A DNA stretch of 64,000 nt from Malacoraja senta. Lineage: Eukaryota. Both the position numbers and the translations under genes were made by a program. How positions within the stretch are numbered: the stretch's first letter is position 1; the number at the start of each line of letters is the position of its first letter. Positions 24,951 to 54,703 of this stretch are shown in pieces. The DNA lies in the NCBI GenBank assembly GCA_038087875.1, contig CM075988.1, positions 16,990,001 to 17,054,000 of the forward strand, read 5' to 3'. Under the pieces are notes generated by a model. That model was not told where the DNA came from and made no database searches. It saw only the letters and a program-made list of their open reading frames with translations.

Positions 24951-25551
24951 ATTGTCATGTCCCAGATAGAACAATGACATTTCTTAGTTGTAGCAGCACA
25001 ACAGATTATGTAGATTTGTAAAGAGTTTATTATGCTAATTTCATTATTTTAATACAACCACTGTTGTTAAAAAAAGAAAAGGAAAAAAAAAGAGAGAGGA
25101 CTTGTTAACACTGTACAGAATGGTTTCCGTGTTAAACTTCCATTCAACCAAATCATTCCTTAATCTTTGCTAACTCCTGCCTCACCTCTGCACACGCATA
25201 TGCACATGGGAGGCATGTGCACTGTGGAGCTTCTACCTCATAGCATCAGAGACTGGGTGCTATCCCGAACATTTTTCTCCCACATATCAAAGACGTGCAG
25301 GTTCGTAGGTTAAATGGCCTCTGTAATTTGCCCTTAGTGTATAGGGAGTGGACGAGAAAGCGGGATAACATAAAACTAGTGCAAATGGGTGATGGTCAGT
25401 GTGGTTTCGGTGGGCCAGAGGGCCTGTTTCTGTTCTCCATCCCCAAACACTGAGAGATTTGGAGATTCTTTCAGTCAACCTGGTGGCATCTAAATCTAGC
25501 ATGTCCACAGGTTCTTCAGTCACTGGAAGCTGAACAAACAAGGCATCCGTT

Positions 25552-25690
25552 GGGGTGGGAGATTGCAACCTTCAGGTTGTCCTCCCTGTTTCGACCGATG
25601 CAATTAACTTGGTGTGCACAATCAAATAAGATCAAATAGAACAAGTTGTCCTCCAACTTTAGGCTGTGCATGCCATACGCAAGAAGAAGA
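25552..25690 (+). mobile_element. Third, more diverged copy of the HDV-ribozyme SINE-like element
   Basis: GGGGTGGGAGATTGCAACCTTCAGGTTGTCCTCCCTGTTTCGACCGATGCAATT...gccatacgcaagaagaaga; ribozyme core mutated. Confidence 0.8.
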
Positions 25691-26987
25691 AAACGCCCGT
25701 GAAATATTTGAATACATTTCCCTCATGGATAGAAAAAAAAAGCATTGCAAACTCAGCACGCGAATTCGTGCCATCTGCAAATTGCATTGTGACAGATCAT
25801 CCAAATACTCCCGTATGCAAAGGCCACACTGTATAACTACCGCAGGCTGACTTAACAGCTGTTTCTCTCAGCCTTATGTTTGCTAAAGGTGTTCTAGAAG
25901 CCTATAAGGAAGCTGACTGAAAATAAAGTTGCAGCAAAATTCAATAATGGCTTCCTGTCCTTTGGTTTACCTGTATTCTGTTTATCTGGTGCAATTAATT
26001 TGGTACGGATGGAAATTTAAAGCCCGCACCTTCGATAGAAAGTTTGACATGGTTACAGAGAATTCAGATGTGTGGATAAAATAGGCATGATGGCAGAATA
26101 GCACAGATTACAGATACAGCAAAAAGGCAATTTGGCAGAATGTACAGCCAGGTAAATTCTCTCTAATACATTGGCTGGAGCCAAATTTATTCAAAACACC
26201 TGTTCCTGTGTACAATATATTCAGGATATGAGATACAGTAAGTAAATAGTACTCCTGGCTTCCCCTCTACAGATGGCATTACACAATCTCTCTTGCAAGT
26301 GTAATAATCCTATTTAAAATAATACTTTTTTTTTTGCAGGAAAAATGTTCCCGATGTTGGGGGAGTCCAGAACCAGGGGGTCACTGTTCAAGAATAAGGG
26401 GTAGGCTATTTAGGACTGAGATGAGGAAAAATATTTTCACCCAAAGAGTTGTGAATCTGTGGAATTCTCTGTCACAGAAGGCAGCGGAGGCCAATTTACC
26501 AGATGTATTCAAGAGAGAGTTACGGAATCAAGGGATATGGGGAGAAAGCAGGAGCGGGGTATTGATTTTGGATGATCAGCCATGATCATACTGAATGGTG
26601 GTGTTGGTCCGAAGGGCACCTAGTTTCTATGTTTCTATGTCCATGTTTTTCTTTCTGATGGGCTGCCTTTTACTGGAGTGCTGTGAAGATAATAGATCAT
26701 ACGTACAGATAAAATACATTTGCCAGTTTACATTGATATCGCAATAAATAGTTTTAAGATATGTCGATTAAAACAAAAGAACCCTGCACTTTATTCCTTG
26801 AAGATATGATGCTTCTTTAAAAAGCATTTTACTAACAATCATGAACCAAGATAAAGAGTGATAAAAAATAGTATGTGATGGCTTATCTCAACACATGTGG
26901 GAGGCATTTAAGCCCAACATATAGATTTAAAGACAAATGTTCCTAATCGTATCAAAGATAACAAAGACAAATTATTATTTGGCTTTG

Positions 26988-27137
26988 GTAGACAGAAAAT
27001 GCTGGAGGAACTCAGCTGGTGAGGCCCGAAACGTCACCTATTCCTTCTCTCCATAGATGCTGCCTCACCAGCTGAGTTTCTCCAGCATTTTTTGTCGACC
27101 TTTGATTTTTCCAGCATCTGCAGTTCTTTCTTAAACA
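26988..27137. mobile_element. Penelope-derived fold-back element
   Basis: Arms around cccgaaacgtcacc; TSD-like attattt(t)ggctttgg / attatttagcgttgg. Confidence 0.7.
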
Positions 27138-28073
27138 TTATTTAGCGTTGGATTCTTCTTGAAGCATTGAACTGATGTAGCTTGTTCTTTTACCGTTTCA
27201 AAGGTTGCCGGGAATGGGAAAAATAACGAACATAAACATAACCGGGTCGGTGTTGGCATAAATTACAGTTAACATGGGAATTGGGGATTGGGGTTCACAT
27301 GGGATATGGGGAGAAGGCAGGAACGGGGTACTGATTGGGGATGATCAGCCATGATCACATTGAATGGCGGTGCTGGCTCGAAGGGCCGAATGGGCTACTC
27401 CTGCACCTATTGTCTATTGTCTAATTGTAATTTGCTTAAAACTTGGACTGATTGCTGGTTAGGAGACAACCTGGACAGAGTCTAGACCTGGGGGAAAAAA
27501 GATCACGGGAATGCACATTGTCAATGGATTTCTACCTCTCCGATGCTGTGTGTGTTGGGAATAGTGTCTTTATTTTTGTTTTATTTATTTATTAGCATTT
27601 TTCTATTTCTTGCAATATTGTACACGTGTAGCTTTTGATTCTAAGTCACCGCTTTGGTGTTAAAGTTGTGTCATGATTTCCAATTCACTCATCATCGTTG
27701 AAAACATTAGCGACGCAGTGGCGCTGGTTTCCGACGGGCACAGTGACGGCCGCACCACAGATCTCTGTCCTCCATGGCAAGCTCCTCTACACATGCGTCT
27801 AGCATCAGCATCGTCTTGCTCAGGTCGGGGGGGGGGGGTGGGGGAGAGAGAGCTCCGCCCGCCACGGGTACCATGTAATCCCGTGCTACCTGCTTCATGG
27901 TCGGATAGTCGGCGACTAAACCGTCTCCCCCACCTTCGGTAGAAGTTGCGATCACTGTCGTACATAGCATTGTAAGGAACGGTGATGACTTCCAAGGAGT
28001 ATGCTAATATTTCCAGGGAATTCACAAATGGGAATTACTGTGCAGTCAATAGATATACATATGCAAGGTGATA

Positions 28074-28467
28074 TAAGGAACTGCAGATGCTGATTTACAA
28101 ACAAAGATAGTGCTGGAGTAAATCAGCGGTTCATGCAGCATCACGGGAGAAAATGGATGGATGCTGTGTCGGATTGGGACCCTTCTTCAGAATGATGGTG
28201 GTGGGGAAGGGGAGAAAGCTGGAAGAGCAGGACAAAGCCTGACGAGTGATAGGTGGATACAGGTGAGGGGGTGGGGGGAGATGATGGCCAGAGATGAAAG
28301 GAAAACAAGATTTGAAATAAGGATAGTACAAATTGTGAAGCCAGATGAAGGAAGCTAGGTGGAAGGGGAGGAGGAAGGGGAGAAATGGGCATGAGGCCAA
28401 GTGGTGCAAGGGGTTCTTTGTGGGTTAGTGTTCATACCACAAAGTTGCAAACTACACAGCCGGAATC
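28074..28467 (-). mobile_element. Penelope-like element 3' end fragment
   Basis: Minus-strand FRLCSLQLCGMNT resembles the PLE IFRLGSLQPxGMNI terminus; ends in the hammerhead-bearing repeat. Confidence 0.62.
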
Positions 28468-29073
28468 TTTCCTGCTGGGGTCACAGATGTAGTTCCATGT
28501 GTTTTGTTTTAATGAGCTGAGCCACAAGTCTATGACGGACAAATGTCATTGAGTTTACTTAAATATTTTTTTTTTAATGAATTCCATAACAAGACCAAGA
28601 TTAAAGAACATAACACTGGGCTTGTGGATAATGTTACATTCTGTTTCAACCGTACATAGATTCATTTTTTTTGTTTAAAGAACAAAATAATTATGTACAA
28701 ACAAGTGTTTATCTACAAATTATGGAATGTAAATTCTTGGCCAATGTAAATTACTTTCTTTTGGCTTTCCAGATGTTTGACACATGCAGATCTAGTCGGT
28801 GCTTTTTTTTGCAGATATAAAGATGCCAGCATATGTAACAATTCACATGACCATATTGGATGATGTACATCAAGTTCATATGTAACTTTTTAGAGGTGCT
28901 GATAAACCATAATGTGGCGCATAGCATCACACAAAACCCCCCCAGTAGATTTAATCACCTTAGAAGCACCCTATGGAGCCATTCACACAGACATTGAGCA
29001 CATCTCAACCTGAAGGGCAACTTTATTTACACAAAGGGTGGTAGGTATATTGAACTGGCTGTCAAAAGAGGTA

Positions 29074-29277
29074 TTTAAGAAGGAACTGCAGATGCTGGAA
29101 AATCGAAGTTCCTCTGCAGTTCTTTCTTAAACACTTTGTCTACTCCACTGCGAAATCTCCTCAAGGCATGCCTACTTTGAAGAAGTTCTCCTCCTCCCTC
29201 CGAAGACAGTTTTAACGTTGCCTATTTCCTTCGCTCCATAGATGCTGCTGCACCCGCTGAGTTTCTCCAGCACTTTT
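29074..29277. mobile_element. Rearranged Penelope-derived fold-back inserted in a CR1 fragment
   Basis: TSD tgtca(a/c)aagaggta; aaggaactgcagatgctgg terminus. Confidence 0.65.
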
Positions 29278-29869
29278 GTCACAAGAGGTAGTTGGGGTGT
29301 TTCTTCACTTCACAGATGCTGCTCGACCTGCTAAATTCCTCCAGCAATTTGTTTTTTTCCCCTCCTGCTCCAGACTCCAGCAAAATAACTTTGTTACATA
29401 AAACCTTCTGATGACAATGAACAAAACTGAGGATTATTACCTGGGACTAGTTCTTCTGTTAAACCATGATACCAGAAAATGTTCTCAATTCTGTGATCGT
29501 GCACTCAGTTCAGAACCCGACGTTTGTTTCAAGCAATTGTTATTGGATTCTAAGTAGTTTCCAATCCTATTCTCGTAATAATCAATGGAAAGATCTTTGG
29601 AAAGGTCCGATTAGCCAGTTCCAACTCGGTAAAAGGTGTTTTAGTTAGTTTGTATTGCAATATTGACAGATAGTACACTTATCTGCCTTGCTCTTTGAAG
29701 CATTTATCTAGTGCAGACAAATATACTTCAAGCAATTGCCTTCACTCACACGGCCTGAATAATCAATGCAAAGCTCTTCTTGAACTTGTCTTCTCAGCAC
29801 ACTGGGTGTGATAACTCCATGTTCCCATTTAACACAACCTTGTTCAATAAACATTTCATCGATTGTGTG

Positions 29870-30130
29870 TTTGTAGTACAGTCCCTTGCTTTCATCTGTC
29901 CATCCTTTTATATTTTCACCCTACAAACAGCTAAAAATGGCCTGTTTGCTTTATCATCATTACTTTTTTGCATATCTTTCATTCATTGTTCTTTATCTTT
30001 CCACATCACCGTCCAAATCTCTTGTTTCCCTTATCCCTAACCGGAAGAATGATCTCGACCCGAAAAGTCACCCTTTCCTTCTCTCCAGAGATGCTGCCTA
30101 TTCCGCTGTTACTCCAGCTTTTTGTGTCTC
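29870..30130 (+). mobile_element. Penelope-like 3' UTR fragment ending in a degenerate hammerhead repeat
   Basis: Pyrimidine-rich UTR, then ggaagaatgatctcgacccgaaaagtcacc. Confidence 0.55.
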
Positions 30131-30201
30131 TCATCCTTTTAAGAATTTCTTTACACATTGTAGAACAACATTTTTTTGTCATCGAATCATAGGTCAGTCT
30201 C

Positions 30202-30343
30202 TCTTCTTCTTCTTGCGTGTGGCGTGCACAGCCTAAAGTTGTAGGACAACTTGTTCTATTTGATCTTATTTGATTGTGCACGCCAGGTTGATTACATTCG
30301 TTGAAACAGGGCGGGCCACGTGAAGATTGCAATCTTCCACCCC
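30202..30343 (-). mobile_element. Second copy of the HDV-ribozyme SINE-like element
   Basis: Same 5' start GGGGTGGAAGATTGCA; ggtcagtctc / ggtcagcctc TSD; P3 partly degraded (AUC/GGC). Confidence 0.85.
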
Positions 30344-30531
30344 AGGGTCAGCCTCACACAGCAGAGACAAAGGCCCTGCAGTCCATTGTATATGTGCTGA
30401 TCATTAAGTACTTGTCCACATTAATTCCGTTTACTAGCACTTGATTCATAGCCATCCATGCTTTAGTGATTCAAGAGTTTCTGCCTCCACCACCCACTCA
30501 GGCAATGTGTACCAGATGTTACAGTGTGCCT

Positions 30532-30692
30532 GTCTTAAGATAGGGTCTCAACCCGAATCATTGTCTGAAGAAGGGTGTCGACCCGAAACGTCACCCATTC
30601 CTTCTCTCCAGAGATGCTGCCTGAACCGCTGAGTTACTCCAGCTTTTTGTGTCTATTTTAGGATTAAACCAACATCAGCAGTTCCTTCCTTC
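30532..30692 (+). mobile_element. Penelope-derived terminal fragment with a hammerhead motif (30565-30592), preceded by a degenerate tandem copy (30532-30559)
   Basis: gtctgaagaagggtgtcgacccgaaacgtcac; the upstream copy reads gtcttaagatagggtctcaacccgaatc. Confidence 0.72.
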
Positions 30693-31777
30693 TCATTGTA
30701 CGTCCATTCCTTCCACAGATGCTGCCTGATCCACAGGGTTTCTCCAGCACTTTGCAATTTTAAAAAGTCCAAAGTGTCTGCTTCCATTTTGAATCAGGAG
30801 AGCCGGTAGGCTTTTTTTTTTAAAAGAAGTTCTCCATAATCACAGAAGACAACCTCCATTTAATCTCACGCAAGTCAAATATTGCCCAATATGTAATTTA
30901 GATTAGGAGTCAACAACATCGCCTGGCCAGGCTGACCCCCGCAACTCCGACCCAGTGCCACCACCAGGACAATAGGCCTTTATGGCCAAGTTAAGACCCT
31001 ACATTTTTAACAACTTTGGACTTGAATCATACAAAATGGTGGCAGAAACATGGGGATGCATATGCTGTCTCAGTGTAACCTACTGTTCCTGCACTCTTGC
31101 CCCAAGTATGTTGTGCCTATGTATAGCAAAGGTTTTCCCGAACTGTATGGGGAAAATAAGTAATTTCACTGTACTAGGTACATGTGACCATAAAGTGCCG
31201 TTAAACCAACAATACGGACAGTGTTGAAACCCTCATACAACGGGCGTAACTGCACACTGACTATGCTTTCCCAATGGACCTATAAGATTGACATCTAGCT
31301 AGTAATTTAGCAAATTGTGCAGCTGTGTCTTTAGAACAAAATGAAACAATAAATGCAATCTGGCCAATTTCTGCATAGTCTGATTTCAAAATGATGAGCA
31401 TGTCATTGGTGGTAGTAAGACACACTTACTCTCCAATGACCTTCCCAGCGACACCCAATATAGATCCAACTAGAAATTACACAACTCCAGACTTCATTAA
31501 AACCTTAGCTCGATCAGACTGGATTCAAATTACAAAGGAAAGAGGATCTGACTACACTGAATATTCTTAGAATCATAGAAATAAATTATCTGGGCCAGTG
31601 CATCCTTACTGGCTAGAAAAGTTGCTGTCTCTTTCAGTAACTTACAAGTCTTTCAGTGCAGAACAGGAAACATGTTAAAAAGTAATGAGGGCTTCTGCAA
31701 ATAAAAACTGCTGGAGGAAATCAGTGGGTCAAGCAGGCAGCATCGATGGAAGAAACAGACAGATGGTGTTTTGAGTG

Positions 31778-31965
31778 GTGGTATGAATATTGATTTCTCC
31801 AATTTCAAGTAACCCTTGCATTCCCTCTCTCTCTCTGTCTCTCCGCCACCCTAGTCATCTTTCTAGTTTCACTGTTCATATCCCTCCGTAATCACCTCTT
31901 CCACAGCCAGCAATGCACCATTGTGGGCTCCACCTTTCCCGAGTCATTGACGCCAGGTCTGATTT
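31778..31965 (+). mobile_element. Penelope-like element ORF end (GMNIDFSNFK*) and 3' UTR
   Basis: ggtatgaatattgatttctccaatttcaagtaa, followed by a UTR similar to the 11560-11740 minus copy. Confidence 0.68.
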
Positions 31966-33693
31966 AGTTTAGTTTATCTTAGAGATACAGCACGGAAACA
32001 GGCCCTTCGGTCCGCGCTGACCAGCGATCCCCACACATTAACACTATCCTACACCCACTAGGGACAATTTTTACATTTACCAAGCCAATTAACCTACAAA
32101 CCTGTACGTCTTTGGAGTGTGGGGGGAAACCCAAGATCTCGGAGAAGACCCACGCAGGTCACGGAGAGAACGTACAAACAGCATCCGTAGTCAGGATCGA
32201 ACAGGGGTCTCTGGCGCAGCAAAGGCAGCATCTCTACCGCTGCGCCAGCGTGACTGCAGTAGAGTTGCTGCCGTAGAGACCCAGTATTGTCTGTTACAAA
32301 GCTGGCCTTTGGATTCTAAATTGATTACTACTTGTAACGTACATTAGAACTATTCTAAACACTGGTTCTTATTTGAATTAATGCCTACAACCTAATTTGA
32401 TGACTCCTGCACAATTCCTAAAACCTTCTGCCACATGAACTCAATTAGTCTCACCTAATATGAGCTACCCCTTCGTTCTGCCCATTCCATGCCCTACCTG
32501 AAGAAGGGTCTCGACCCGAAACATCACCCATTCCTGTCCAGAGATGCTGCCTGCCCCGCTGAATTACTCCAGCTTTTTGTGTCCATCTTGTTTAAACCAG
32601 CATCTGCACTTCCTTCCTACCCATCCCCTACCTTCTCCCTTACAGAAAACGACATTGTTTTCTCACTTTCCTTTTTCTGAAGAAGGCTTTTAGACATTAA
32701 CCTCATTTATTTTTTCCACAGATGCTGCCTGACCTTCTGCAGTTTTCCAATATTTTCTGCATGTATACCATATATAATGTCAATACAGTTGTAGCATCCA
32801 GCATTGTGACTGTACTAAGGCTCAGAATAACGACAGTGCATTCACATTTCCTTGCCTTCACAATCACTGTCAGTGTTTTTATTTTGCATGGTTGCAATCC
32901 ATTTCCATCTACTGTTCGCCCAGAATACGTAATCACTTTCTGCATAATCCTTCTTTTAGATTTTACATTGTTTTTCTGTCACAGCCTGAACACTTCTCAG
33001 AACTGAACATTTTCTGAGGCACATGTGGTTATTAGTGCATCATGTTGATTGATTAGACAATGAGCCATATCTTGTGACATCCTGAAATATCTTCAGTGGT
33101 GATTTCATCCCACGAGGTAGCTTTGTGTATGAATAAAGACTTGTGTATTACTTATCAAACTATGTTGACTTTCCATATCCATATTCAGCTGAGCCCACGC
33201 ATGTGATGGATTAAATTTGAAAACCTTTGCTTCTGCCAACTCTGCAAATGGATTCTGTAAAATAGATAATAGTTACTGCTCTTCATTGTTTAGTTCATCG
33301 TCATCTTGTAAACATCACACTGTCGAATGGTCTTGCCTATTTCTGACACAATTACAATTGGTGTTGCCTAATCACCATCTTGAGTTGTAGTATATAGAAC
33401 AGCAGTAGGCCCTTCGGCCCACAATATCTGTGCTGACTGTAATGCCACTTTGCACGTGCCTGTCTAAATGCCTCTTAAATGTTGCTATCATATGGGCTTC
33501 CATCACCTTCCCCAAAAGTCTGTTCTTGGCATCCATCCCTCTGTGTAAAAACACTTGCTTCATAAATCTCATAAACTTTGGCATGGGCAAGTTGGACCAA
33601 TGGGCCTGTTTCTACACTGAATGACTCTATAAACTTTCCCTCTCTGACAAGACGATGCCCTCTAGTATCTGACTGGAACTCGAAGCCACTCTT

Positions 33694-33896
33694 GTGTAGG
33701 AAGGAACTGCAGATGCTGGTTTAAACCGAATATAGACACAAAATGCTGGAGTAATTCAGAGGGACAGGCAGCATCTCTGGAGAGAAGGAATGGGTGACGT
33801 TCGGCTCTGAAGAAGGGTCTCGACCCGAAACGTCACCCATTCCTTCTCTCCAGAGATGCTGCCTGTCCCGCTGAGTTACTCCAGTATTTTGTGTCT
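33694..33896. mobile_element. Penelope-derived fold-back element with an intact minimal hammerhead motif at its centre
   Basis: Inverted arms ~33733-33803 and ~33825-33897; CTGAAGA-A-GGGTC-TC-GACCC-GAAA-CGTC at 33807-33834; TSD aagccactctt / aagtcactctt. Confidence 0.8.
33805..33837 (+). ncRNA. Minimal type I hammerhead ribozyme motif (Penelope-type)
   Basis: CUGANGA core, 5-bp stem II, GAAA, palindromic ACGU in place of stem III, UC cleavage site at 33833-33834. Confidence 0.72.
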
Positions 33897-35857
33897 AAGT
33901 CACTCTTCCTTCATGTAATTCTTCAGTGTATCTGTGGAGGGGTGACCCTTACATTCCAAACTGGTTTTGGACCAATCTTAAAATCGACATGGGCATTATA
34001 ATCTGTAATACCAGTGTTAGTATCCTTGGACATTTTGCATACTCTCTCAACAGTTTAGTTTAGAGATACAGCACGGAAACAGGCCCTTCGGCCCGAGTCC
34101 ACGTCTACTAGCGATCCCTGCATTCTAACACCATCCTACACTCGAGGGACTATTTACATTTATACCAAGCCAATTAGCCTACAAACCTGTCGGTCTTTGG
34201 AGTTTGGGAGGAAACCGGAGATCCCAAAGAAAACTCATGCAGGTCACGGGAGAACGTACAAACTCCGTACAGACAGCACCCTTGGTCAGCATCGAACCAG
34301 GGTCTTTGGCGTTGTAAGGCAGCAACTCTACCGCATACGCCACCGTGCCTCCCCATTTTGATATTAAAACTTCCTGCTGAATCCTTGTGTGCTTCAATTT
34401 CCTAAGATGCTTTTGTCCAGCGTTGCTCAATTAATATAATCAGCTCAAACCACTGAGAGGTCTAGCTACCGACTGTTGTGACTCACTAAATATTTAATCC
34501 CGTCTTAAGTCTGCAATGCTTCCAATGATCATGTTTTCAGGTTCACTCTACTCTTTGCTGGAATTGACATAGTCTTGTGTCATTTTGCATAATTGAGAAA
34601 AAGAAACTGCTGCCATCTTGATGTACTGACCAATTAACCACACTTTATCTTCAATTGTTATGCTTTCTGCCATTGCCTCCAGGTATAATTCTGAATGCGT
34701 AAGCACAATTCTAAATTGTCCATTGGTCACATTAGCTGTAGTATTGTGTAAACTGTCCTCCTGTGGCTTTTGGCACTGAATATCTGCCCTCTATGAGGAA
34801 CTCACACCACTGGAATTGGTTTGGTTAACTACCCTGACTCTAGGTGCATGCTGTGAGCAAGTGCTTGTTTTCCAATAATTAATTCACACAGAGGGTGGTG
34901 GCTATCTTCAATGAGTTAACCCTGGATGTGGTAAAGGCAGATACAACATTTAAATGACATTTCAATAGCAAAGGAGTAAAGGGATGGGGGCCAACGCAGG
35001 TAATTGATATTAGTGTAGATTGGCATTGTGGCCAGTATTGGATGAAGTGGGCTGAAGGGCCCATTTGTGCTGATCATTCTGTGAAAACACTTTGCTATTT
35101 TGAATTGACACATGTATGAAGGACAGCTTCTGTTACATCTTAAACAGCAACTCCCATCAATGTTAGCCATGGGTTTCAGATTCTGCATTAGAATATCCTT
35201 CTCAACCACCCGAAAACGATGGAATGTAGTTATATTGGATGAAATTCTTTGACATTTCTAACATTATCACCATGAGAAACACAGACTTTGGCACACAAGA
35301 TGGGTGAATCTGTTCAATAACCATTTGAATTTGCTCAATAAAAGCACAAACAAACTTGATGTAACAGGTGGTCTGAGAAAGACCTAACCAGGACTACAAT
35401 GGCAAGGCTGCTCTGCCAACATGCATTGCCCAACATCTACACTCTAGCTGAAGAGGTAGCAATCACCTGGACTTCTGGCACTTTCGAATCGAATTGCTGT
35501 TGTAACTTCAACTCATCACTTTCACTTTCCATGGCGTTGGAAGTTCATTAACATCATCTCTCTTTTTCAGAAGTCACTTCAGTTAGAAGGATGACTCACT
35601 TGCATTTACTGAGTAACATCATATTCTGCAGACAAATTTGCATCACTGACAATTTTCACTTTTATAATCACATTTTAAAACATGTCTGTGTCACCGTCAG
35701 ATAAACTGAAAGGCGTGCGCACCCAATCATACACATGTCGTCGAGTTTGTCTATTGTCATATGCGCAAGCACACAGAGGTACACGTACAATGGGAATCTT
35801 GCTTGCAGCAGCATCACGGGTACATAGACTCAGACAACACACGAAACTGAGCTCTTG

Positions 35858-36520
35858 GCAGAGGTTGAGCAGGCTAGGACTCTATTCTGTGGAGCGTAGG
35901 AGGATGAGGGGCGATTTTATAGAGGTATACAAAATCATGAGAGGAATAGATTGGGTAGACGCACAGAGCCTCTTGCCCAGAGTAGGGAAATCGAGAACCA
36001 GAGGATTTAATAGGAACCCGAGGGGTAGCTTTTTCCACACAAAAGGTGTGGTGGGTGTATGGAACGAGCTGCTGGAGGAGTTAGTTGAGGCAGGTAGTAA
36101 CACAACGCTGAAGAAACATTTAGACAGGTACATGGATAGGACAGGCTTAGAGGGATATGGGCCAACCACAGGCAGGAGGGACTAGTGTAGATGGGTGCTG
36201 CTCTGCATTTACACATGGGTTAACCGCACCACACCATGTACACCAACAAGCTGGGACATAGTTTAAATTACATTGTGAAAAAGCTAGGAAAGTCTCAAAA
36301 ATGTGCTACCAAAAATAGCTCTGTAAGTGCAGTGGAGGCCAAATCACTGGATGGATTTAAGAGAGAGTTAGATAGAGCTCTAGGGGCTGGTGGAATCAAG
36401 GGATATGGGGGAAAAGGCAGGCATGGGTTATTGATTGGAGACGATCAGCCATGATCACAATGAATGGCGGTGCTGGCTCGAAGGGCCAAATGGCCTCCTC
36501 CTGCACCTAGTTTCTATGTA
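35858..36520 (+). mobile_element. Two CR1 3' fragments (35858-36195, 36327-36520). Short ones also at 395-530, 13090-13270, 26335-26640, 27300-27422, 55155-55395
   Basis: CR1 ORF ends and 3' UTR motifs. Confidence 0.8.
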
Positions 36521-37199
36521 ACTATAGGAAATGAAGCAGCTATTGATGAATTATGTAACCAATTAGATTTGCAATAGAGTTCTGATTTGGAAAATTATTG
36601 AAATTAATAAATAAAATTAAGCACCAATATTTAAATCTCATGTTATACCATGTCCAAACACATATTACTAATATCATTGAGGGAAGGGAATGTGCTAGCC
36701 TTTCTTGGCCTGGTCTATTTGTGATTTTGACCCAGCGACGTGATCACCCTCCTCAGTTCAATGGTAATCAGGACAGGACAATAAATGTCAGTAATCATAT
36801 TCACATTTCAAATGAATGGAATAAGAACTCTGGAGTGCATTAAATAGTAAAAGAATCAAAAACAGTAACTTGCCAACGCCAACAATGAACAGGAAGGTGG
36901 TCACTTGCGTTTCATGGACACCAAAGCCATGAGGCTTTATCACACCACAGAAATGAAATCACTTGGCTCATTGTCTAATTCCATTTCAACTTGAATTAGT
37001 GACAAATACAGACTATCTTTAATGTTTCGTCGCATTCCATTCAATATCACAATGCTCTAATCAGTAGGCCAGCACACAGGAAGAAGATTCAATGCATGGT
37101 CACAGAATGGATGGTGAGCGTCTACGTTGAGATGTTCATCTCAGTAACATGAGAGGAAGTTAAACATTTCACCCCATTCAGCGCTTGCAGTCAGAGAGC

Positions 37200-38070
37200 A
37201 GGTGGAAGTCAGTTTTGAAATGGTTAGCAGTTCTGAACTAAAACCCAGACGTTGGAAAGATGTACCTGGCAAAAGTAGGAAACAACAAATGCATCCAAAT
37301 TGAAACTAATTATGTTTGATGAGGAAACTGTGATTTCCCCCCCAGCTATACATATCCCTTTATATTCCCGAAAGGCTTTGTCTGATTTCATCTTCCTAAA
37401 CCTTGCATATGGTTCTTTTTTCCCCACTTTTGACCAAATTTACAACCTCTCTGGTCATCCAAGGTCCTCTTACCTTGCCGTCCTTGTCCCTCCTTACTGG
37501 AACATGTTGGTCCTGAACTCTGCTCAACTAGTTTTTAAATGACTCCCACATGTCTGATTTGGAATTGCCCAATAAACAGCTGCTCCCAATTTAAGGGCCT
37601 GTCCCACGAGCATGCGACTGCATGCGGCAAGCCGACCTAACGTGGTCGCTTGAGCCGTACGGCCTCGCGGGGCCGGTCCCACTTCGATCGCCGGAGCCGT
37701 ATGGAGTTGTGCGGAGCAGGTCCTGACATCGCGCGGGGCTCCGAAAAACTGACTGTTCAAAAATTCCGCGCCGCAACGGCCTGCCGGCCCGCAGCCGCTT
37801 TGAAGCCTTACGCACCACCTCGACGCCGAACTTCCCGCGGACTTCGCTCGAACTTCACGTCAACTTGTACGGGATCACTCGACCTCCGCGCGGCCCCCAC
37901 TTCCGGTTTGGTCGCGCTTGCCGCATGCAGTTGCATGCTCGTGGGACAGGCCCTTTACTCTTTGCAAATTTACTAATCAGGTCTTGTACATTCTCATGCA
38001 AATCATTGATATAAACAACAAACGACGATGGGCCCAGCACCGTTTCCTGAGGAACACTAGACACAGGCCT
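37200..38070 (-). mobile_element. Old CR1 internal fragment(s) hosting the MITE at 37594
   Basis: Minus-strand VPQETVLGPSSFVVYINDL...ISKFA RT motif. Confidence 0.7.
37594..37954. mobile_element. PIF/Harbinger-type MITE
   Basis: TIR agggcctgtcccacgagcatgc / gcatgctcgtgggacaggccct; perfect TTA TSD; inserted in a CR1 fragment. Confidence 0.9.
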
Positions 38071-38123
38071 TCAGTCCTGGTGGGCATGTCCCACTGCCTA
38101 GCTTTTAGCAACACTACACAACC

Positions 38124-38268
38124 TTCTTCTTCTCTTCTTGCGTATGGCGTGCACAGCCTAAAGTTGTAGGACATCTTGTTCTATTTGATCTTATTTGATT
38201 GTGTACGCCAGGTTGATTGCATTCGTCGAAACAGGGTGGACCACGTGAAAGTTGCAATCTTCCACCCC
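38124..38268 (-). mobile_element. ~145-nt SINE-like element with a 5' HDV-like ribozyme fold and an (AGA)n tail (best copy)
   Basis: Homologous to the copies at 30202 and 25552; flanked by cactacacaacc / cacaacacaatc TSD-like repeats. Confidence 0.85.
38215..38268 (-). ncRNA. Minimal HDV/CPEB3-like self-cleaving ribozyme (predicted), 54 nt
   Basis: GGGGUGG(P1) AA GAUUGCA(P2) ACU(P3) UUCACGU(L3) GGU(P3') CCACCCU(P1') GU UUCGA CGAA(J4/2) UGCAAUC(P2'); G1-U wobble at the cleavage site. Confidence 0.8.
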
Positions 38269-38294
38269 TCACAACACAATCAAAGAGGCATAAC

Positions 38295-38440
38295 GTGTAG
38301 GAAGGAACTGCATATGTTGGTTTAAACCGAAGATAGACACAAAAAGCTGGAGTAACTCCGGCAGCATCTCTGGAGAGAAGGAATGGGTGACGTCCAGAGA
38401 TGCTGCCTGTGCCGCTGAGTTACTCCAGCTTTTTGTGTCT
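38295..38440. mobile_element. Penelope-derived fold-back element, hammerhead centre deleted
   Basis: Inverted arms; 15-bp TSD atcaaagaggcataa at 38279-38293 and 38441-38455. Confidence 0.8.
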
Positions 38441-41400
38441 ATCAAAGAGGCATAATGTTCTTTTAAATGCCAATTTAATTCATTTGGTGTTATTCTTTCA
38501 GAGATATTCTCCTTGCCCTCCAATCGATCCTTCCTCTTCCTTGCCATGGACATCTTGATTTTTTCCTCTGTTCCAGTTCTGATGAAGTGTCCTGGACTTG
38601 AAATGTTAACTGTTTCTCTTACCCGTCATGTTTCCTGACCAGCTGAGTGTTTCCAGTATTTTCTGTGTTCATTCCTAATTAACTATAGTTTGCTCGTCAG
38701 CGTTTTTCTCCCAACTCCAATCATGCTCATCAGACGTTGAAGCTAACATTTCAACTGGCATGATAATTAGGGTCAGGGAGGCAAATATGTTCCACATTGG
38801 GGCAGAATCTAATGAAAAAGACATACTACTAAGCATATTTTGTCACACTTTTGCCTTAGGGAATTGCTGAAATTAGTAGTTTTTTTTCTTCTAATTTCAA
38901 ATCGAGCAATTGAATTAGAACACGTTCCAAAGCATTGCATAGCTTGTCTATTCTTGTTCCCTTCAGCAAAGTAGCTTCCAGGTTTCAGTAGCCATGTACA
39001 AGGATGAGCTTTGTATGTGATAACAAGGAGCTGCGGATCCTGGTTTATACCAAAAATGCACACACAATGCTGGAGTAACTCAGCAGTTCAGGTAACATCC
39101 CTGGAAAACATGGAACATCATGCTGAAAAAGGGTTCCAACCCATTGCTGCCTGACCTGCAGAGTTACTCCAGCATTTTGTGTCTACCTTTAAGCTTAATT
39201 TGTGTCGGGTGATGAAGATCTGAGGTCAAGTTTCACTCTGCAAAAGGCAAACAATGTCATAATGCAATTGATGTAAAACACAGCCACTTAGCATTTAAAT
39301 ACTTCCCTCAGGGAAGGTGCAATATTTCTCACAACAATAATAGGAGATTCTAGTTTTAAAGTAATGTTGAAAACTTAAATGAATCAGAATAGCAGGTGCT
39401 ATACAATTCATTTTCCGAGCAGAGCTGCAAATCTTGACTTAATTGTCAATTTAATTGGTAAATGTGAAAGGGGCTGTAATTAAAATGACTGAATTCAAGC
39501 TAAATTTGTTGAAGGCTGGTTTCATCTCTGCTGTTGGCATGCTGCCCGTAGGTCTATCCACCTCTCTTATTAACCCAGAAGTGTCTAGGAGCAGCAACAC
39601 TGTTGAAATTTTCAAGTGGCATTGACTGGTGAAAGTAAACCTCATGGTATATAAACTTAGGGCCGGAAAACCCCCAGCCTTTTTGCGGCAATGGAATGGG
39701 TCTTTTGTATCTCATGTGTTCTTGAAATGGCTATTTGGCCCATCAAGTCTGTGCTAGTCTTCACAGCAATGCCATGAATCTCAGTTCCCACTTCTTTCCC
39801 TGGAACCTATTCAACACAACTCTCACGAATCTCCGATCGCCCTTCTGGCAAAAGGTAATTATAGTCAATTATATTACCAACCAAAAATTCTTTGGGATTT
39901 GGGAGGAAATTACAGAAATTGGTGAGGTTACAAGGAGAACGTGGTAACTCCACACAGCACCAGAAGCCGGGATCGAACCTGGATTGCTGGAGCTGTGAAA
40001 CACTACCTGCTGCACCAGTGATGCTCTTTTTCCCTCCCCATGCGATACAAGTACCACAGCCTTACATCACAGGAGGAAGCTGTATTTCACTTCAAATATA
40101 CATTCGCGGTTAGATTTAAGGATAAACAGATAATTTCCTGTGAATAATGAAGTACATAATCAGGTATTGTTCACTTTATGCTCAAAACTCATTCTAAGAT
40201 TAGGCAGATTAAAGGATTAACGGTTATGTTAAAATGCGGGGGGACAGAAGAATTTAAAAGCTGAACAAAAGAAACTAAAAATATTTCAAAGTGGAATAAT
40301 ATCAAGAAACTAAGGGTTTTACACTAATATATATGCACGAAGAGTTTTGGACAAAAGGTACTACTAGTAAGTGAGCTGGTACTCGGACAAATTAAATGCC
40401 ACATTCTTCTCTATTTCCTCGTAAATTCCCAAATATGCATTTATGAAAACTGCATGTGCAGTTGTGCATCCAATTCAGTGTAGTAGCAGCAACACATGAA
40501 CACCATCCCTTCTTATAATGGGTATAGAAATATGGAATTCAAATGTACAAAAATATAAATAAAAATCTATCGCTGACTGGTGACTGAATTCTCATTCTTC
40601 TCTGAAGATTAAACTTGGGTTTGATTCATTGCGCGTATGACCACGAGAGCGACTGGAGGTTATGAAAAAAATACTGCTCTTAAAACAGACAAAGCATATC
40701 ATCAGAACAACATTCAGGGGTTAAAAGACAAGGAAATTAAAGTTGTGTTGTATGTATTCCTAAGCAGGAGATGCTGAAAGATTGAAAGCTGACAAGATAT
40801 TATACTGGTGGTTCTTTCGAAAGGTCATTCCTCAGGAGCGAGCTACTCAGATATCGGGATTTTCATCTTTTTAGTTTAGAGATACAGATCCTTCGGCACA
40901 CCGGGTCAATGCCGACCATCGATTACCCGAACACCTGTTCTATGTTATCCCACTTTTGCATCCTACACAGAGGGGGCATATTACAGAACCCAATTAACCT
41001 ACGAACCTACACATCTTTGAGATGAGTGAAGAAACCGGAGCACCCTAAGAAAATCTAACGCTATCACAGGGAGAACGTGCAAACTCCGCACAGACAACCC
41101 CCTTAGTCAGGATCGAAACCTGGTCTCTGGCGCTGTAAGGTGGCAACTCTACCGCTGTACCACTGTGCTGCCTGTGCTCGCCTCCCCAGCTGCTGTGAAA
41201 CCCTTCACCAAAGGAATAGAGATGAATTTTACCAGTCTTTTCAAAGATATTTAACATTACAGGCAAGATGATGAAAGTTATCCGTCTACATTTTCAGGTT
41301 TTATTGTCGTCTAGATTTTTAATCTTTGTCAAATTCTGTGGTGTTGAGAAAATACAAATCACAAAGTTAGGAAGTCCTGAATGGCAAAGCACACAGTGTT

Positions 41401-46439: not shown

Positions 46440-46881
46440 GTGTGAGCTGCAGGGAGAGGTTGGGTATACTGGGTCTCTATTCAATGGAGCGCAGTAGGAT
46501 GAGGGGGAATCTTATAGAGGTCTACAAAATCATGAGAGGAATAGATTGGGTAGATGCACAGACTCTCTTGCCCAGAGTAGGGGAATCGAGGACCAGAGGA
46601 CATAGGTTGAAGGTCAAGGGGAAAATGTTTAATAGGAATCCGTGGGGTGACTTTTTCACACATAGGGTGGTAGGTGTGTGGAACAAGCTGCCAGAGGAGG
46701 TAGTTGAGGCTGGGACTATCCCGTCGATTAAGAAACAGACAGGTACATGAATAGGACAAGGTTTGGAGGGATATGGACCATGTGCGGGCAAGTGGGAACT
46801 GGTGTAGCTGGGACAATGTTGGCCGGTGTGGGCAAGTTGGGCCGAAGGGCCTGTTTTCACACTGTATCACTCTATGACTCT
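46440..46881 (+). mobile_element. CR1/HER1 3' fragment
   Basis: ORF 46442-46750; ctctatgactct tail. Confidence 0.88.
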
Positions 46882-46939
46882 AATCTACTGCGCACTGAAA
46901 CTGATAGTGAATCTGTATGCCCAAACCCCTATAGGCTAT

Positions 46940-48851
46940 AGGGCTATAGAAGACTATAGGCTCAAATTAGAACGACAGCTGCAGCAAGATGGGGTGAAGC
47001 AGGTATGGGCTGGAATGCGAAAGATCACGGGCATGAAGCAGAAGGGTGGTACACTGCCTGATGGTGAACAGAGTCTGGCTGATGATCTCAACAGATTTTT
47101 CAACAGATTTGACTGCCCCACACCACCCCAGCCTCCACCACCTGGTCTGCTGACCATTGCTGCTTCCTCTCCACTTCCTCTCCCTCTCTCCATCATCCCC
47201 ATCACTCCTGAGATGTCACCTGTACGGAGTCCCCTCTTTCCACCTCCCACTCCACCAGCAGCTCCACCTATGACTCTTCATACTGCTCAGGTCAAGATGA
47301 TGCTGGACAGACTGAAGCCAGGGAAAGCAGTGGGGCCTGATGACACCAGCCCAAGGCTACTGAAGACCTGCTCTTTAGAGCTGTGTGGTATTCTAACACA
47401 CCTGTTCAACCTGAGCTTGCGTCTACAGAAGGTTCCAAGGCTGTGGAAAACATCTTGCCTGGTACCTGTCCCAAAGAAGACCCATCCCACTCACCACAAT
47501 GACTACAGACCAGTAGCGTCACTTCACATATTATGAAGACATTTGAGAGACTTGTCCTTTCCTATATCAGGACTAGTGTGTCAAATCAAATGGATCCTTT
47601 ACAGTTTGCATATCAGCCTAACATCAGTGTCGATGATGCCCTCATTTACATGCTGCAGAGGGTGTACACACATTTGGACACTACTGATGCATCTGTAAGG
47701 ATTACATTTTTTGACTTTTCAAGCGCCTTCAACACAATTCAGCCCCGATTGCTAGGGGAGAAGATGGAGAAGATGAAAGTGGATCCATCACTGGTACTGT
47801 GGTGTTTGGATTACCTTTCCCTCAGACCACAGTACGTGCGCCTACATAACAACAATGTCTCAAGCACCATCTTGAGCAGCACAGGGGCTCCACAAGGAAC
47901 TGTGCTGGCTCCATTCCTGTTTACCATCTACACAGCGGATCTCCGATATAACACCAACAGCTGCTTTTTGCAGAAGTTTTCGGATGACACAGCTGTTGTC
48001 GGCCTCATTAAAGGGGGCAATGAGGAGGAGTACAGAGACATAATAAGTAACTTTGTGGAGTGGAGTGCACTCAATAACCTCCATCTTAACACCACAAAAA
48101 CCAAGGAGATAGTTGTGGACTTCAGGAGGGGGAGGAGGATGACTCAAGCAACACCAATCACCATTAAGGGCACTGAGGTGTAGGTGGTCGCTAACCACAG
48201 GTACCTTGGTGTGCAGCTTGACAGGGAGCTGGACTGGAAGTGTCATATGGAGGCGGTGTACAGGAAGGGACAAAGCCGACTGTATTTTTTAAGGAGGCTG
48301 AGGGCATTTAACATCTGCCAACCCCTACTGTGCAGTGTCTACCATTCAGTGGTGGCCAGTGCTCTGTTTTTTGCGGTGGCCTGTTGGGGAGATGGCGCTC
48401 GCATAGCGGACAAAAACAGACTGGACAAACTGATCAGGAAGGCCGGCTCAGTGGTCGGGGCTGAGCAACGAACGGTCCAGCAGGTGGCAGAGGCCAGATC
48501 TCTGAAAAAACTGGGTTCTATAATGACCAACCCCACTCACCCACTCCATGCCCTGAAGGTGATCAAGAGCAGCAGCTTCAGTCAGAGACTGATTGCACCA
48601 ATGTGCAAAACGGAGAGACATAGGAAGTCCTGTTTACCAGCTGCGATAAGATTATACAATGCGCATAAATAACTGCACTTTTTAAAAATTAATTGTATTT
48701 TAACTTGTATTTTAACTTGTATTTTAACTTGTTAAGTATGGAAGCTATTTGTGGTGTTATGTATGTCTTGAAGCTGTCGTGGCATTGTAATTTCCTGCAA
48801 AGGATTATTAAAGGTATATCTTAATCTTAATCTTAATCTTAATCTTAATCT
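46940..48851 (+). mobile_element. Rex1/Babar-type LINE, 5'-truncated; RT pseudogene with one frameshift and one stop
   Basis: RT motifs DYRPVA, FFDFSSAFNTI, GAPQGTVLAPFLF, KFSDD, YLGV, RLYFLRRL; 1-nt deletion at ~47520; TAG at 48181; (TCTTAA)n tail. Confidence 0.9.
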
Positions 48852-49676
48852 ATTGTGTGTGCATGATATTCAGCCAACTATACCTGCATGTACAGATATA
48901 CATATGCATAAAACTGTTAATAAATGCAGTGAACATCAATCTACAGACTTGAAATGAATCTTGAAATATGGATTATACTGCAAAGATAAATATACACTGG
49001 CCAATTCATATAGTACACTCTAGATCTTAATAGATAATATAGCACTGAAATATGGCATCACTCACTATCCTATATATTTCTTCGATGGTTAGTTGTTTTA
49101 GTGCCTGAAAATTTTGAGCAGCAGCCAACAATCTGAAGAGCACGTGCAGATCCTGAGATGTACAAAAACCTTGTTTCCTTCAGCTACTCCTTCTCACTAT
49201 GTTTTTATTGGCAACATCCTTGGAAAATTATCACTCAAAGGAAACAAAACTGAAAAGAAACTTCACTCTTGAAAAACAAAACAATTTCAGATTTTTTTTT
49301 GTGCAGCTGATATTTTGCACGTGGAACATTAATTAAATCTGCATGTTTGCATAGTGTAATGTTACTGGGAAAGGACTGTTTGCATATCACCTGGGCTGTC
49401 TGAGAACCAGGATGCTGCAATATTTGCTTCACAAGCAGTCAGACGACAGGAGATATTCAAATGTTTTGTTTTACTGAGAATGGAGCTTACTGTACATTAG
49501 AGAACACAGCCGTTATGCAAATTTGATTCTTCACAGGAATAAGCACAAGAGAAGTCTGTCCATTTTGACATCAAGTGACAAGGAGGAGAGGATGTTGGTA
49601 GCATGCTCAGGTGTTGAACAAACATGACAATATTGGAATGGAGGTTTCACATGACATTACCTCATCTGCTGGTGAT

Positions 49677-54655: not shown

Positions 54656-54703
54656 CTCAAACAAGAACATAACATGAATAATAAAAAACGGGTAACATCT
54701 GAC

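What the first reader, a model, noticed from the sequence alone, without database searches (positions are those of the whole stretch)
38124..38268. Tiny retroposon whose 5' end is a minimal HDV/CPEB3-like ribozyme
Seen: a ~140-nt repeat occurs three times (25552+, 30343-, 38268-), and all copies begin at the same G. In this copy the first 54 nt form the HDV-type nested double pseudoknot: P1 GGGGUGG/CCACCCU with a G1-U wobble, P2 GAUUGCA/UGCAAUC, P3 ACU/GGU, L3 UUCACGU, a GU junction, a 5-nt remnant in place of P4, and J4/2 CGAA with the putative catalytic C. The copy ends in (AGA)n and has a ~12-bp TSD. No tRNA-like A/B-box head is evident. Established: L3 UUCACGU, GU and CGAA match the mammalian CPEB3 ribozyme as I recall it, and HDV-like ribozymes define the 5' ends of R2, RTE and L1Tc retrotransposons. 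Inference: this is a promoter-less, non-autonomous SINE that cuts itself out of host read-through transcripts and is copied by a LINE. I do not recall such a family being described in cartilaginous fish, but cannot confirm novelty.
Basis: partly seen in the sequence, partly recalled or inferred. Interest (0 to 1): 0.92.

Follow-up and report, generated by a model that had tools for sequence, protein, structure and literature searches.

The report
Ribozyme-headed mini-retroposon of a fish LINE
This 145-base repeat is a stripped-down copy of a jumping gene that keeps only the parent's self-cutting RNA head and its tail, and the parent's sister families carry heads that match a ribozyme so far described only in a mammalian memory gene.

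Summary
The repeat is real, with 3 copies in the window and about 5,770 matches to a family-specific 29-mer in the 1.94-Gb genome. It has target-site duplications, an (AAG)n tail and a 5' end fixed at G1. Its first 54 nt satisfy a strict HDV-type double-pseudoknot descriptor: 1 hit in the window and 0 in controls.

It is not a classical SINE. It is a short internally deleted derivative of an abundant compact LINE of about 3.1 kb with one APE+RT ORF. That LINE starts with the same P4-less ribozyme and ends with the same 37-nt tail.

Sister LINE families in the same genome begin with full ribozymes. These hit Rfam's "mammalian CPEB3 ribozyme" model at up to 64 bits (cut-off 35). P1, P2 and P3 covary across families: 10 of 17 pairs change on both sides, and 94% of cells are paired against 70% in shuffles.

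Self-cleavage itself is untested, and the RNA-seq lay was uninformative.

The kind is known (R2 SIDEs, L1Tc/NARTc, RTE ribozymes). What is new is a dispersed, high-copy, minimal, CPEB3-type version in what appears to be a cartilaginous fish. It also gives a lead that the mammalian CPEB3 ribozyme descends from such a LINE head.

The parts
38123..38268 (-). Full-length copy of the short internally deleted element (called SIDE-a here), nt 1-146
   Evidence: 94-100% identical to the 40 scored genome copies
38215..38268 (-). Putative P4-less HDV/CPEB3-type ribozyme, nt 1-54; predicted cleavage is 5' of G1 (38268)
38262..38268 (-). P1 5' strand (nt 1-7, GGGGTGG)
   Evidence: pairs with 38233-38239; the 7 P1 pairs are 91.9% paired across families
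38233..38239 (-). P1 3' strand (nt 30-36, CCACCCT); T36 forms the wobble with G1
38253..38259 (-). P2 5' strand (nt 10-16, GATTGCA)
   Evidence: 5 of 6 counted P2 pairs change on both sides between families
38215..38221 (-). P2 3' strand (nt 48-54, TGCAATC)
38250..38252 (-). P3 5' strand (nt 17-19, ACT; ACC in most copies and in the LINE)
38243..38249 (-). L3 (nt 20-26, TTCACGT); C22 (38247) pairs with G37 as P1.1
   Evidence: the C-G pair is invariant in 25 of 25 distinct rows; same L3 as the Rfam CPEB3 consensus
38240..38242 (-). P3 3' strand (nt 27-29, GGT)
38231..38232 (-). GT after P1 (nt 37-38), the P1.1 strand
38226..38230 (-). Five nt (TTCGA) where sister families have a P4 hairpin
38222..38225 (-). 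J4/2 CGAA (CTAA in the LINE); C44 (38225) is the putative catalytic cytosine
38170..38214 (-). Body, nt 55-99: up to about nt 77 it is related to the LINE 5' UTR (83-91% identity); origin of nt 78-99 unknown
38133..38169 (-). Last 37 nt before the tail (nt 100-136), the same as the 3' end of the partner LINE including its stop codon
   Evidence: up to 100% identity to LINE 3' ends
38123..38139 (-). AAG/AGA-rich tail
   Evidence: (AAG)n in all 30 loci
38270..38279 (-). Upstream target-site duplication (TTGTGTTGTG)
38112..38121 (-). Downstream target-site duplication (1 mismatch)
30198..30343 (-). Second copy; one P3 pair broken; TSD GAGGCTGACC with 1 mismatch
25552..25693 (+). Third copy, decayed (L3, P3 and P1 pairs lost); no TSD found by my criterion

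Best explanation
The repeat is a short internally deleted, non-autonomous derivative of a compact single-ORF LINE (APE + RT, about 3.1 kb). It keeps the two ends an RNA would need to be copied.

The first 54 nt are the LINE's own 5' ribozyme. This is a minimal, P4-less member of the HDV-like class and a relative of the CPEB3 ribozyme. The last 37 nt plus (AAG)n are the LINE's 3' end, which the LINE's reverse transcriptase presumably recognises.

Proposed cycle:
1. A copy lying in a transcribed region is read through by RNA polymerase II (inferred).
2. The nested double pseudoknot folds and cuts immediately 5' of G1, giving an RNA whose first base is G1 (inferred from fold, homology and the fixed 5' ends).
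3. The LINE protein binds the shared tail and copies the RNA into a new site by target-primed reverse transcription, leaving 10-17-bp duplications (shown by anatomy).

Shown: the anatomy, the LINE parentage, the copy number, conservation and covariation of the fold, and the fixed 5' ends. Not shown: cleavage, the lack of a promoter, and how the 3' end is formed.
For: Parentage.
- LINE 3' ends match SINE nt 100-136 at up to 100% identity.
- LINE 5' ends begin with the same sequence at G1 in 5 of 11 fetched 5' loci: L059, L061, L063, L067, L077. L066 begins with a variant of it and the other five are truncated at about nt 5-13.
- Ribozyme, APE and C-terminus lie collinear on one strand at four places: C8:19.40 Mb, C1:194.04 Mb, C1:144.06 Mb and C5:45.20 Mb (coordinates).
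- Pfam finds Exo_endo_phos_2 and RVT_1 (E 2.4e-23).
- A second deletion derivative joins LINE nt 1 to about 97 directly to the 37-nt tail, with TSDs: L069, L070, L073, L076.

Fold.
- The strict descriptor gives 1 hit in the window and 0 in controls.
- 21 of 32 examined copies keep all 16 pairs plus the J4/2 cytosine.
- On 26 sequences from 7 families, 94.1% of cells are paired, against 70.5 +-1.5 in 500 shuffles (0 of 500 reach it) and 36-47% with partners slid.
- 10 of 17 pairs change on both sides (P1 3/7, P2 5/6, P3 2/3) and the P1.1 C-G pair is invariant.
- P2 strands pair 6/6 within every family. Between families they pair 2-5 of 6, except C with F (identical P2) and the H 5' strand with the I 3' strand, which also reach 6.

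Homology.
- Rfam CPEB3_ribozyme scores 64.2, 63.8, 52.6 and 40.7 bits over the full model on the 5' ends of sister family C, just upstream of APE ORFs.
- In the whole genome, 39 matches exceed the cut-off of 35, and 0 of 14 control genomes match.
- A second P4-less family (I) scores 35-43.7 bits.

Ends.
- TSDs of 10-17 nt were found in 27 of 32 copies, each ending within -2 to +3 of G1.
- 17 of 20 copies sampled without regard to the 5' end reach nt 1 +-1.
- The family-specific 29-mer has 5,770 matches, and its reversed control has 0.

Precedent.
- R2 SIDEs consist of a 5' ribozyme plus the 3' end (abstract, PMC3414825).
- Cleavage at the 5' junction is reported for the R4, L1Tc and RTE clades (passage in PMC3774820).
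- P4-less HDV-like ribozymes exist (passage in PMC10879173).
Against: - No cleavage assay exists.
- Rfam finds nothing at this copy, neither at gathering thresholds on the window nor at E<=10 on 38100-38300. The LINE's own head only reaches 17.5 bits (E 2.5) against HDV-F-prausnitzii.
- The nested-only MFE fold of nt 1-60 is no better than shuffles (z 0.42). That program cannot model pseudoknots.
- P4 is missing. The activity of this particular minimal form is assumed by analogy.
- Raw poly(A) RNA-seq reads of a related organism label cover the element, but the lay lists no place where many molecules begin or end. This is a weak test: the reads are 151 nt, longer than the element, and 98% run on into unlike flanks.
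- The covariation is between families that are clades, and the structure was derived from these sequences. The shuffle counts are therefore not probabilities.
- A fixed 5' end would also follow from an internal promoter that starts at G1.
Confidence: 0.8

Rival explanations
1. The 54-nt head is an inherited but catalytically dead relic. On this view the 5' end at G1 is set by an internal RNA polymerase II promoter in the LINE-derived 5' region, as in many insect LINEs. L1Tc combines both: its Pr77 acts as promoter and ribozyme at once.
For: - The fixed 5' end is equally expected from a fixed transcription start.
- P4 is lost, and the window copy fails every Rfam model.
- L1Tc's first 77 nt act as both promoter and ribozyme (abstract of PMC3383444 as listed).
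Against: - A DNA promoter does not explain compensatory changes in three helices across families.
- It does not explain why a second, independent P4-less family keeps the same architecture.
- It does not explain the invariant P1.1 pair and the C-N-A-A junction.
Confidence: 0.12
2. The fold is real, but its main job in the short element is not cutting. It might protect the 5' end from exonucleases or serve as a handle for the reverse transcriptase or second-strand synthesis, with cleavage incidental.
For: - A review states that the stable double-pseudoknot fold of an R2 ribozyme gives cap-like protection in engineered templates (passage in PMC13708176).
- Inverted 5' segments of LINE copies stop at nt 5-14 rather than nt 1. 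This would fit a structure that hinders copying.
Against: This is not exclusive of cleavage. The conserved J4/2 cytosine and the G1-U wobble at the element boundary are features of the active site, not of a mere stable fold.
Confidence: 0.06
3. The pairing is a chance resemblance in a repeat, with no structure behind it.
For: A loose descriptor finds about 100 'hits' in the window, so weak HDV-like patterns are common.
Against: The strict descriptor gives 1 hit against 0 in controls. The covariation and the Rfam-significant sister families also argue against chance.
Confidence: 0.02

Closest known systems
R2 SIDEs (short internally deleted elements) of Drosophila (Eickbush and Eickbush 2012, PMC3414825; abstract read)
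   Same: A non-autonomous element made of the LINE's 5' HDV-like ribozyme joined to the LINE's 3' end, and propagated by the LINE's target-primed reverse transcription.
   Different: R2 SIDEs are site-specific in rDNA and are called 'rare examples' in that abstract. This family is dispersed, has about 5,770 matches to its 29-mer, derives from an APE-type LINE, lies in a vertebrate, and has a P4-less ribozyme.
L1Tc / NARTc of Trypanosoma cruzi with the L1TcRz ribozyme (PMC3185411 and PMC3383444; abstracts as listed)
   Same: An autonomous LINE and its truncated non-autonomous partner share a 5'-terminal HDV-like ribozyme that frees the RNA from co-transcripts.
   Different: That head is 77 nt and doubles as a promoter, in a protist with polycistronic transcription. 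No sequence likeness to it was tested here.
Mammalian CPEB3 ribozyme (Rfam RF00622)
   Same: The same L3 (UUCACGU), CCCUGU and CGAA as the Rfam consensus printed. Sister LINE families match the full model at 40-64 bits.
   Different: The CPEB3 ribozyme is a single intronic locus described as conserved in mammals (passages in PMC10919898). Here the motif heads multi-copy retroelements. The window copy lacks P4 and does not reach any Rfam score.
Minimal (P4-less) HDV-like ribozymes: drz-Mtgn-1 and the phage theta ribozymes (PMC10879173; passage read)
   Same: The double pseudoknot lacks the P4 domain and is about 50-55 nt long.
   Different: Those come from metagenomes and phages, next to tRNAs. 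The passage says the origin and function of minimal variants were undetermined. Here the context is a vertebrate retroelement's 5' end.
HDV-like ribozymes at the 5' junction of RTE, R4 and R2 LINEs (Ruminski et al. 2011, not held; cited in a passage of PMC3774820)
   Same: Cleavage at the exact 5' junction of a non-LTR element, and the same compact single-ORF APE+RT architecture.
   Different: The clade of this LINE was not determined (RTE-like or Vingi-like by architecture only). The known examples I could verify from text are from insects and other invertebrates.
Classical SINEs (tRNA, 7SL or 5S head with a LINE-derived tail)
   Same: Short and high-copy, with a LINE-derived 3' tail, TSDs, and dependence on a partner LINE.
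   Different: There is no Pol III head. The head is the LINE's own ribozyme.

Membership tests
HDV-like ribozymes (drz) | Nested double pseudoknot: P1 crossing P2, with P3 nested | tested here: met
   All 7+7+3 pairs form in the 38268 copy. The strict descriptor gives 1 hit against 0 in controls. Covariation across families.
HDV-like ribozymes (drz) | P1.1 pair between L3 and the base after P1, and a G1-U wobble at the cleavage site | tested here: met
   The C22-G37 pair is present in 25 of 25 distinct rows. The first P1 pair is G-U in 15, G-C in 1, unpaired in 7 and gapped in 2 of the 25 rows. It is G-U in this copy.
HDV-like ribozymes (drz) | Cytosine at the start of J4/2 (the general acid in HDV) | tested here: met
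   C44 is present in this copy. In 29 of 31 parsed SIDE-a copies J4/2 starts with C; L016 and L018 have T.
HDV-like ribozymes (drz) | P4 hairpin | tested here: not met
   Five nt (TTCGA) stand in its place. P4 is dispensable in the described minimal variants (PMC10879173 passage), so this does not exclude membership.
HDV-like ribozymes (drz) | Self-scission 5' of G1 leaving a 5'-OH | not testable with these tools
   The RNA-seq lay listed no pile-up of molecule starts or ends anywhere on the stretch, so none at G1, but it is a weak test.
Rfam CPEB3_ribozyme (RF00622) | Bit score at or above the gathering score of 35 | tested here: not met
   The window copy gives no match even at E<=10. Sister families do pass: C 40.7-64.2 bits, P4-less family I 35-43.7 bits.
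SIDE (short internally deleted element of a LINE) | The 5' end is identical in origin to the LINE's 5' ribozyme | tested here: met
   LINE 5' ends L059, L061, L063, L067 and L077 start with the same sequence. Identity to SINE nt 5-94 is 83-91%.
SIDE (short internally deleted element of a LINE) | The 3' end is identical in origin to the LINE's 3' end, and the insertions carry TPRT hallmarks | tested here: met
   nt 100-136 match LINE 3' ends at up to 100%. TSDs in 27 of 32 copies.
Classical SINE | Head derived from tRNA, 7SL or 5S with an internal Pol III promoter | tested here: not met
   ARAGORN finds 0 genes in 25400-38400. Rfam finds no such match.
RTE clade of LINEs | Placement of the reverse transcriptase within the clade by phylogeny | not tested
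   Only the architecture fits: one ORF of about 1000 aa, an element of about 3.1-3.5 kb, and a microsatellite tail. Vingi-like is equally open. No labelled reference sequences were on hand.

The most novel reading that the evidence does not exclude
The mammalian CPEB3 ribozyme is not a de novo intronic invention. It would be the domesticated 5' head of a compact LINE of the group found here.

This genome, apparently of a cartilaginous fish, still holds at least seven families of such heads. At least one (family C) precedes intact ORFs of about 1010 aa. Their core matches the mammal-built Rfam model over its full length. One family (G) shares even the P4 stem letters printed in that model's consensus.

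The P4-less form in the window's element would then be a naturally minimised CPEB3-type ribozyme with a defined job.
Probability: 0.55. Interest if true: 0.85.

Novelty: new variant of a known kind. Interest (0 to 1): 0.72.

Why it matters
If the head cuts, this family offers several things.
- It would be a vertebrate, genome-wide, high-copy example of a retroposon that needs no promoter of its own.
- It would be a natural 54-nt HDV-class ribozyme with a clear biological role. A 2024 paper (PMC10879173) says the origin and function of minimal, P4-less variants were undetermined.
- Every copy that lands in a gene would be a ready-made source of transcript-cutting sequence.

The sister families make a long-standing question testable: where the CPEB3 ribozyme came from. 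The literature I read calls it conserved in mammals and does not link it to any LINE. That could be tested by comparing mammalian CPEB3 intron 2 with the 5' regions of these LINEs.

Tried and rejected
- **Rfam on the window and on the copy**: no relevant match.
- **Nested MFE folding**: z 0.42 and 0.25. It is uninformative because pseudoknots are not modelled.
- **My first, loose descriptor**: about 100 hits in the window, so it is useless as a test. I replaced it with a strict one.
- **Walking the LINE from L050**: only low-complexity and unrelated ORFs.
- **Sequencing runs:** no RNA holder is listed for the stretch.
- **The lay on window:37800-38600**: the element is covered in raw poly(A) RNA reads, at depth about 66-112 and 144-266 by mate strand. 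No place is listed where molecules begin or end. Nearly all reads run on into unlike flanks, and an unrelated, far more abundant repeat at 38286-38447 dominates. It says nothing firm on cleavage or strand.
- **Earlier findings of this scan**: nothing on this genome or sequence.
- **LINE clade:** names attached to relatives, such as 'X-element' or 'hypothetical', do not place it. Vingi and RTE were read about but not tested.
- **Ruminski et al. 2011:** could not be read.
- **Family E** (L085, L086; 42% APE identity): neither descriptor found a ribozyme in the 650 nt upstream.
- **Family D** (L083): a candidate with a bulged P1 that I did not resolve.
- **Literature:** searches found no paper tying a CPEB3-type ribozyme to a LINE or to fishes. 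One search was badly posed. Subscription journals and Repbase/Dfam were not searchable.

Full report
**The observation**

The sequence at 38124-38268(-) is as described. Copies begin at 25552(+) and 30343(-). A 29-mer and an 18-mer from the repeat each match three times in the window, and no shuffle gave three.

In the window's own genome (1.94 Gb, 6182 contigs) a DNA search scored 40 of at least 472 candidates, all 94-100% identical. A family-specific 29-mer with up to 2 mismatches matches 5,770 times, and its reversed control matches 0 times.

**Ends of the element**

I examined 32 copies: the 30 loci, which include the window copy, plus the two other window copies.
- 27 start GGGG, 4 carry another base at position 1, and 1 is truncated.
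- A duplication of 10-17 nt with at most 1 mismatch was found in 27 of 32. Its upstream copy always ends within -2 to +3 of G1.

Those loci were the best-scoring ones and so favour complete copies. I therefore took the first 20 places, by position, that match the internal 29-mer exactly. Of these, 17 reach nt 1 (+-1), one is cut by 4 nt, one is cut by about 20 nt, and one has an internal deletion. Every locus ends in (AAG)n.

There is no tRNA, 7SL or 5S head.

**The fold**

The window copy forms P1 (7 bp, G1-U), P2 (7 bp), P3 (3 bp), a 7-nt L3 with C22 opposite G37, five nt in place of P4, and J4/2 CGAA.

My first, loose descriptor was worthless, with about 100 hits in the window. A strict descriptor required all of the following:
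- a G1-U wobble and a perfect 7-bp P1;
- a perfect 6-7-bp P2 abutting P3, and a perfect P3;
- a 7-nt L3 with C at position 3, and G directly after P1;
- the junction C-N-R-A directly before the P2 3' strand.

It hits once in both strands of the window, at 38268(-). It hits 0 times in 299 kb of other loci and 0 times in 40 simulated windows. I wrote it after seeing the sequence, so it is a control on chance, not an independent discovery.

Of the 32 copies, 21 keep all 16 pairs and the J4/2 cytosine. The 30343 copy has one broken P3 pair, and the 25552 copy is decayed. That is expected of dead insertions.

Two results point the other way. Rfam finds nothing at this copy, and nested folding is no better than shuffles.

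**The parent LINE**

A partial match in a flank (L007) turned out to be the 3' end of a LINE ORF. Its last codons, stop codon and 3' end equal SINE nt 100-136.

That C-terminal piece has at least 4,110 candidate matches in the genome. Upstream lie an RT and an APE domain.

The LINE's 5' region continues from the APE ORF back through a short leader to the same ribozyme sequence.
- Among the 11 fetched 5' loci, five reach nt 1 (+-1), each with a different flank: L059, L061, L063, L067, L077.
- L066 starts with a variant of the same sequence.
- The other five are truncated at about nt 5-13.

Ribozyme, APE and C-terminus are collinear at four places, giving an element of about 3.1 kb (coordinates). 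The ORF appears to start about 113 nt from G1 (read).

A second short family joins LINE nt 1 to about 97 directly to the 37-nt tail, with TSDs: L069, L070, L073, L076.

The window's element is therefore an internal-deletion derivative of the LINE. This is the architecture Eickbush and Eickbush named SIDE for R2 (abstract).

Relatives of the RT piece are proteins of about 1000 aa with APE and RT domains, on contigs of 3.2-3.5 kb. The named ones are from arthropods, a tunicate and a cyprinid, at 40-47% identity. The best hit, unnamed, is 73% identical. I could not place the clade. The architecture fits RTE or Vingi.

**Sister families and the CPEB3 link**

APE searches also found LINE families 34-49% identical in the same genome, some with open frames of 1008-1014 aa. 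Their upstream regions gave these results.
- Family B (L088) has a full HDV-type fold with a P4 hairpin about 140 nt before the APE start.
- Family C (L081, L082, L084, L087) matches Rfam's 'Mammalian CPEB3 ribozyme' over the whole model, at 64.2, 63.8, 52.6 and 40.7 bits against a gathering score of 35.

Searching the genome with that Rfam family gave 51 matches at E<=0.001 among 59 scored. Of these, 39 exceed the cut-off. None of 14 control genomes matched.

Twenty of these places, read with their flanks, fall into families C, F, G, H and I.
- Family G shares even the P4 stem letters of the Rfam consensus.
- Family I is P4-less like the window's element and still scores 35-43.7 bits. It looks like another short element with an (AAG)n tail and a TSD (L107).
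- Only families A, B and C were tied to LINE ORFs here. For F, G and H the position 'at a 5' end' is an appearance, not a demonstration.

**Covariation**

A MAFFT alignment of 26 heads from seven families is gap-free outside P4. Counting the pseudoknotted structure on it gave the following:
- 94.1% of 423 cells are paired, against 70.5 +-1.5 in shuffles (0 of 500 reach it) and 36-47% when partners are slid.
- The covariation score is 0.631, against 0.196 in shuffles and at most 0.13 when slid.
- 10 of 17 pairs change on both sides (P1 3/7, P2 5/6, P3 2/3).
- The P1.1 pair is invariant.

P2 strands pair 6/6 within every family. Between families they pair 2-5 of 6, except C with F (identical P2) and the H 5' strand with the I 3' strand, which also reach 6.

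Two cautions apply. The families are clades, and the structure came from these sequences.

**Expression**

No RNA holder is listed for the stretch. A lay on 37800-38600 shows the element in raw poly(A) RNA reads of a coded organism and in contigs of three other coded organisms. The majority letters there equal the family's common letters. No pile-up of molecule starts is listed at G1. With 151-nt reads on a 146-nt repeat this says little either way.

**Organism**

The only named relatives of a CR1-type ORF in the window are from a stingray (77% identity), the elephant shark (70%) and a skate. That is 3 named organisms among 102 hits. I went no further.

**What is known**

- HDV-like ribozymes at the exact 5' junction are reported for the R2, R4, L1Tc and RTE clades (passage).
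- Ribozyme-headed non-autonomous partners are known for R2 and for L1Tc/NARTc (listing).
- Twister variants are reported to function in non-LTR retrotransposition in a fluke (listing).
- P4-less HDV-like ribozymes are known from metagenomes and phages, and a 2024 paper says their origin and roles were open (passage).
- The CPEB3 ribozyme is described as conserved in mammals. The passages I read do not connect it to a LINE.
- The human genome holds fossils of RTE, RTEX and Vingi LINEs (abstract and passages), so a LINE origin is feasible.
- My searches found no paper making that link or describing such elements in cartilaginous fishes. Repbase, Dfam and subscription journals were out of reach.

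**Verdict**

The kind of element is known. This is a new variant: vertebrate, dispersed, high-copy, minimal and CPEB3-type. The most interesting by-product is the family of CPEB3-type heads on LINEs.

Noticed in passing
L084:196-279(+), L087:407-490(-), L082:386-469(-), L081:409-492(-); 39 genome places over the cut-off: LINE families in this genome begin with ribozymes that pass Rfam's gathering score for the 'mammalian' CPEB3 ribozyme (up to 64.2 bits). Some sit upstream of open frames of 1008-1014 aa.
   Followed up: partly
L100, L102, L106-L109: A second P4-less CPEB3-type head (family I, 35-43.7 bits) sits on what looks like another short element of about 165 nt with an (AAG)n tail. L107 shows a TSD, CCTGAGGAGT. 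The base before its GGGG is T in 5 of 6 copies, so its true first base is unclear.
   Followed up: partly
L081 and L082 (oriented as, nt ~110-215): There are tandem 26-nt repeats of the ribozyme's 5' half (P1 5' strand through P3 3' strand) ahead of the one complete ribozyme. The GATC shared by both P1 strands may allow slippage.
   Followed up: no
L055, L049, L047, L039, L050: 5'-truncated LINE-A copies are preceded by an inverted piece of the LINE's own 5' end. The inverted piece stops at nt 5-14, not at nt 1. This looks like twin priming, with copying that halts short of the P1 strand.
   Followed up: no
L054/L035: A hybrid copy: LINE 5' nt ~13-110, then an inverted match to SIDE-a nt ~80-95, then the last ~600 nt of the LINE. 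The origin of SIDE-a nt 78-99 remains unexplained.
   Followed up: no
window 38286-38447: A different and far more abundant repeat lies 18 bases from the element's 5' end. Summed depths are 10-20 times those of the element in every run laid, with many inverted joints.
   Followed up: no
window ~17330-17530: A run of N, either a gap or a withheld stretch. It shows as X in the ORF translations.
   Followed up: no
window 3898-4434, 6699-7175, 10188-10715, 20656-21438, 46808-48672, 49618-50328: The window is largely CR1- and L2-type LINE debris. I recognised no clear host exon. An open frame at 54657-55070(-) was not identified.
   Followed up: no
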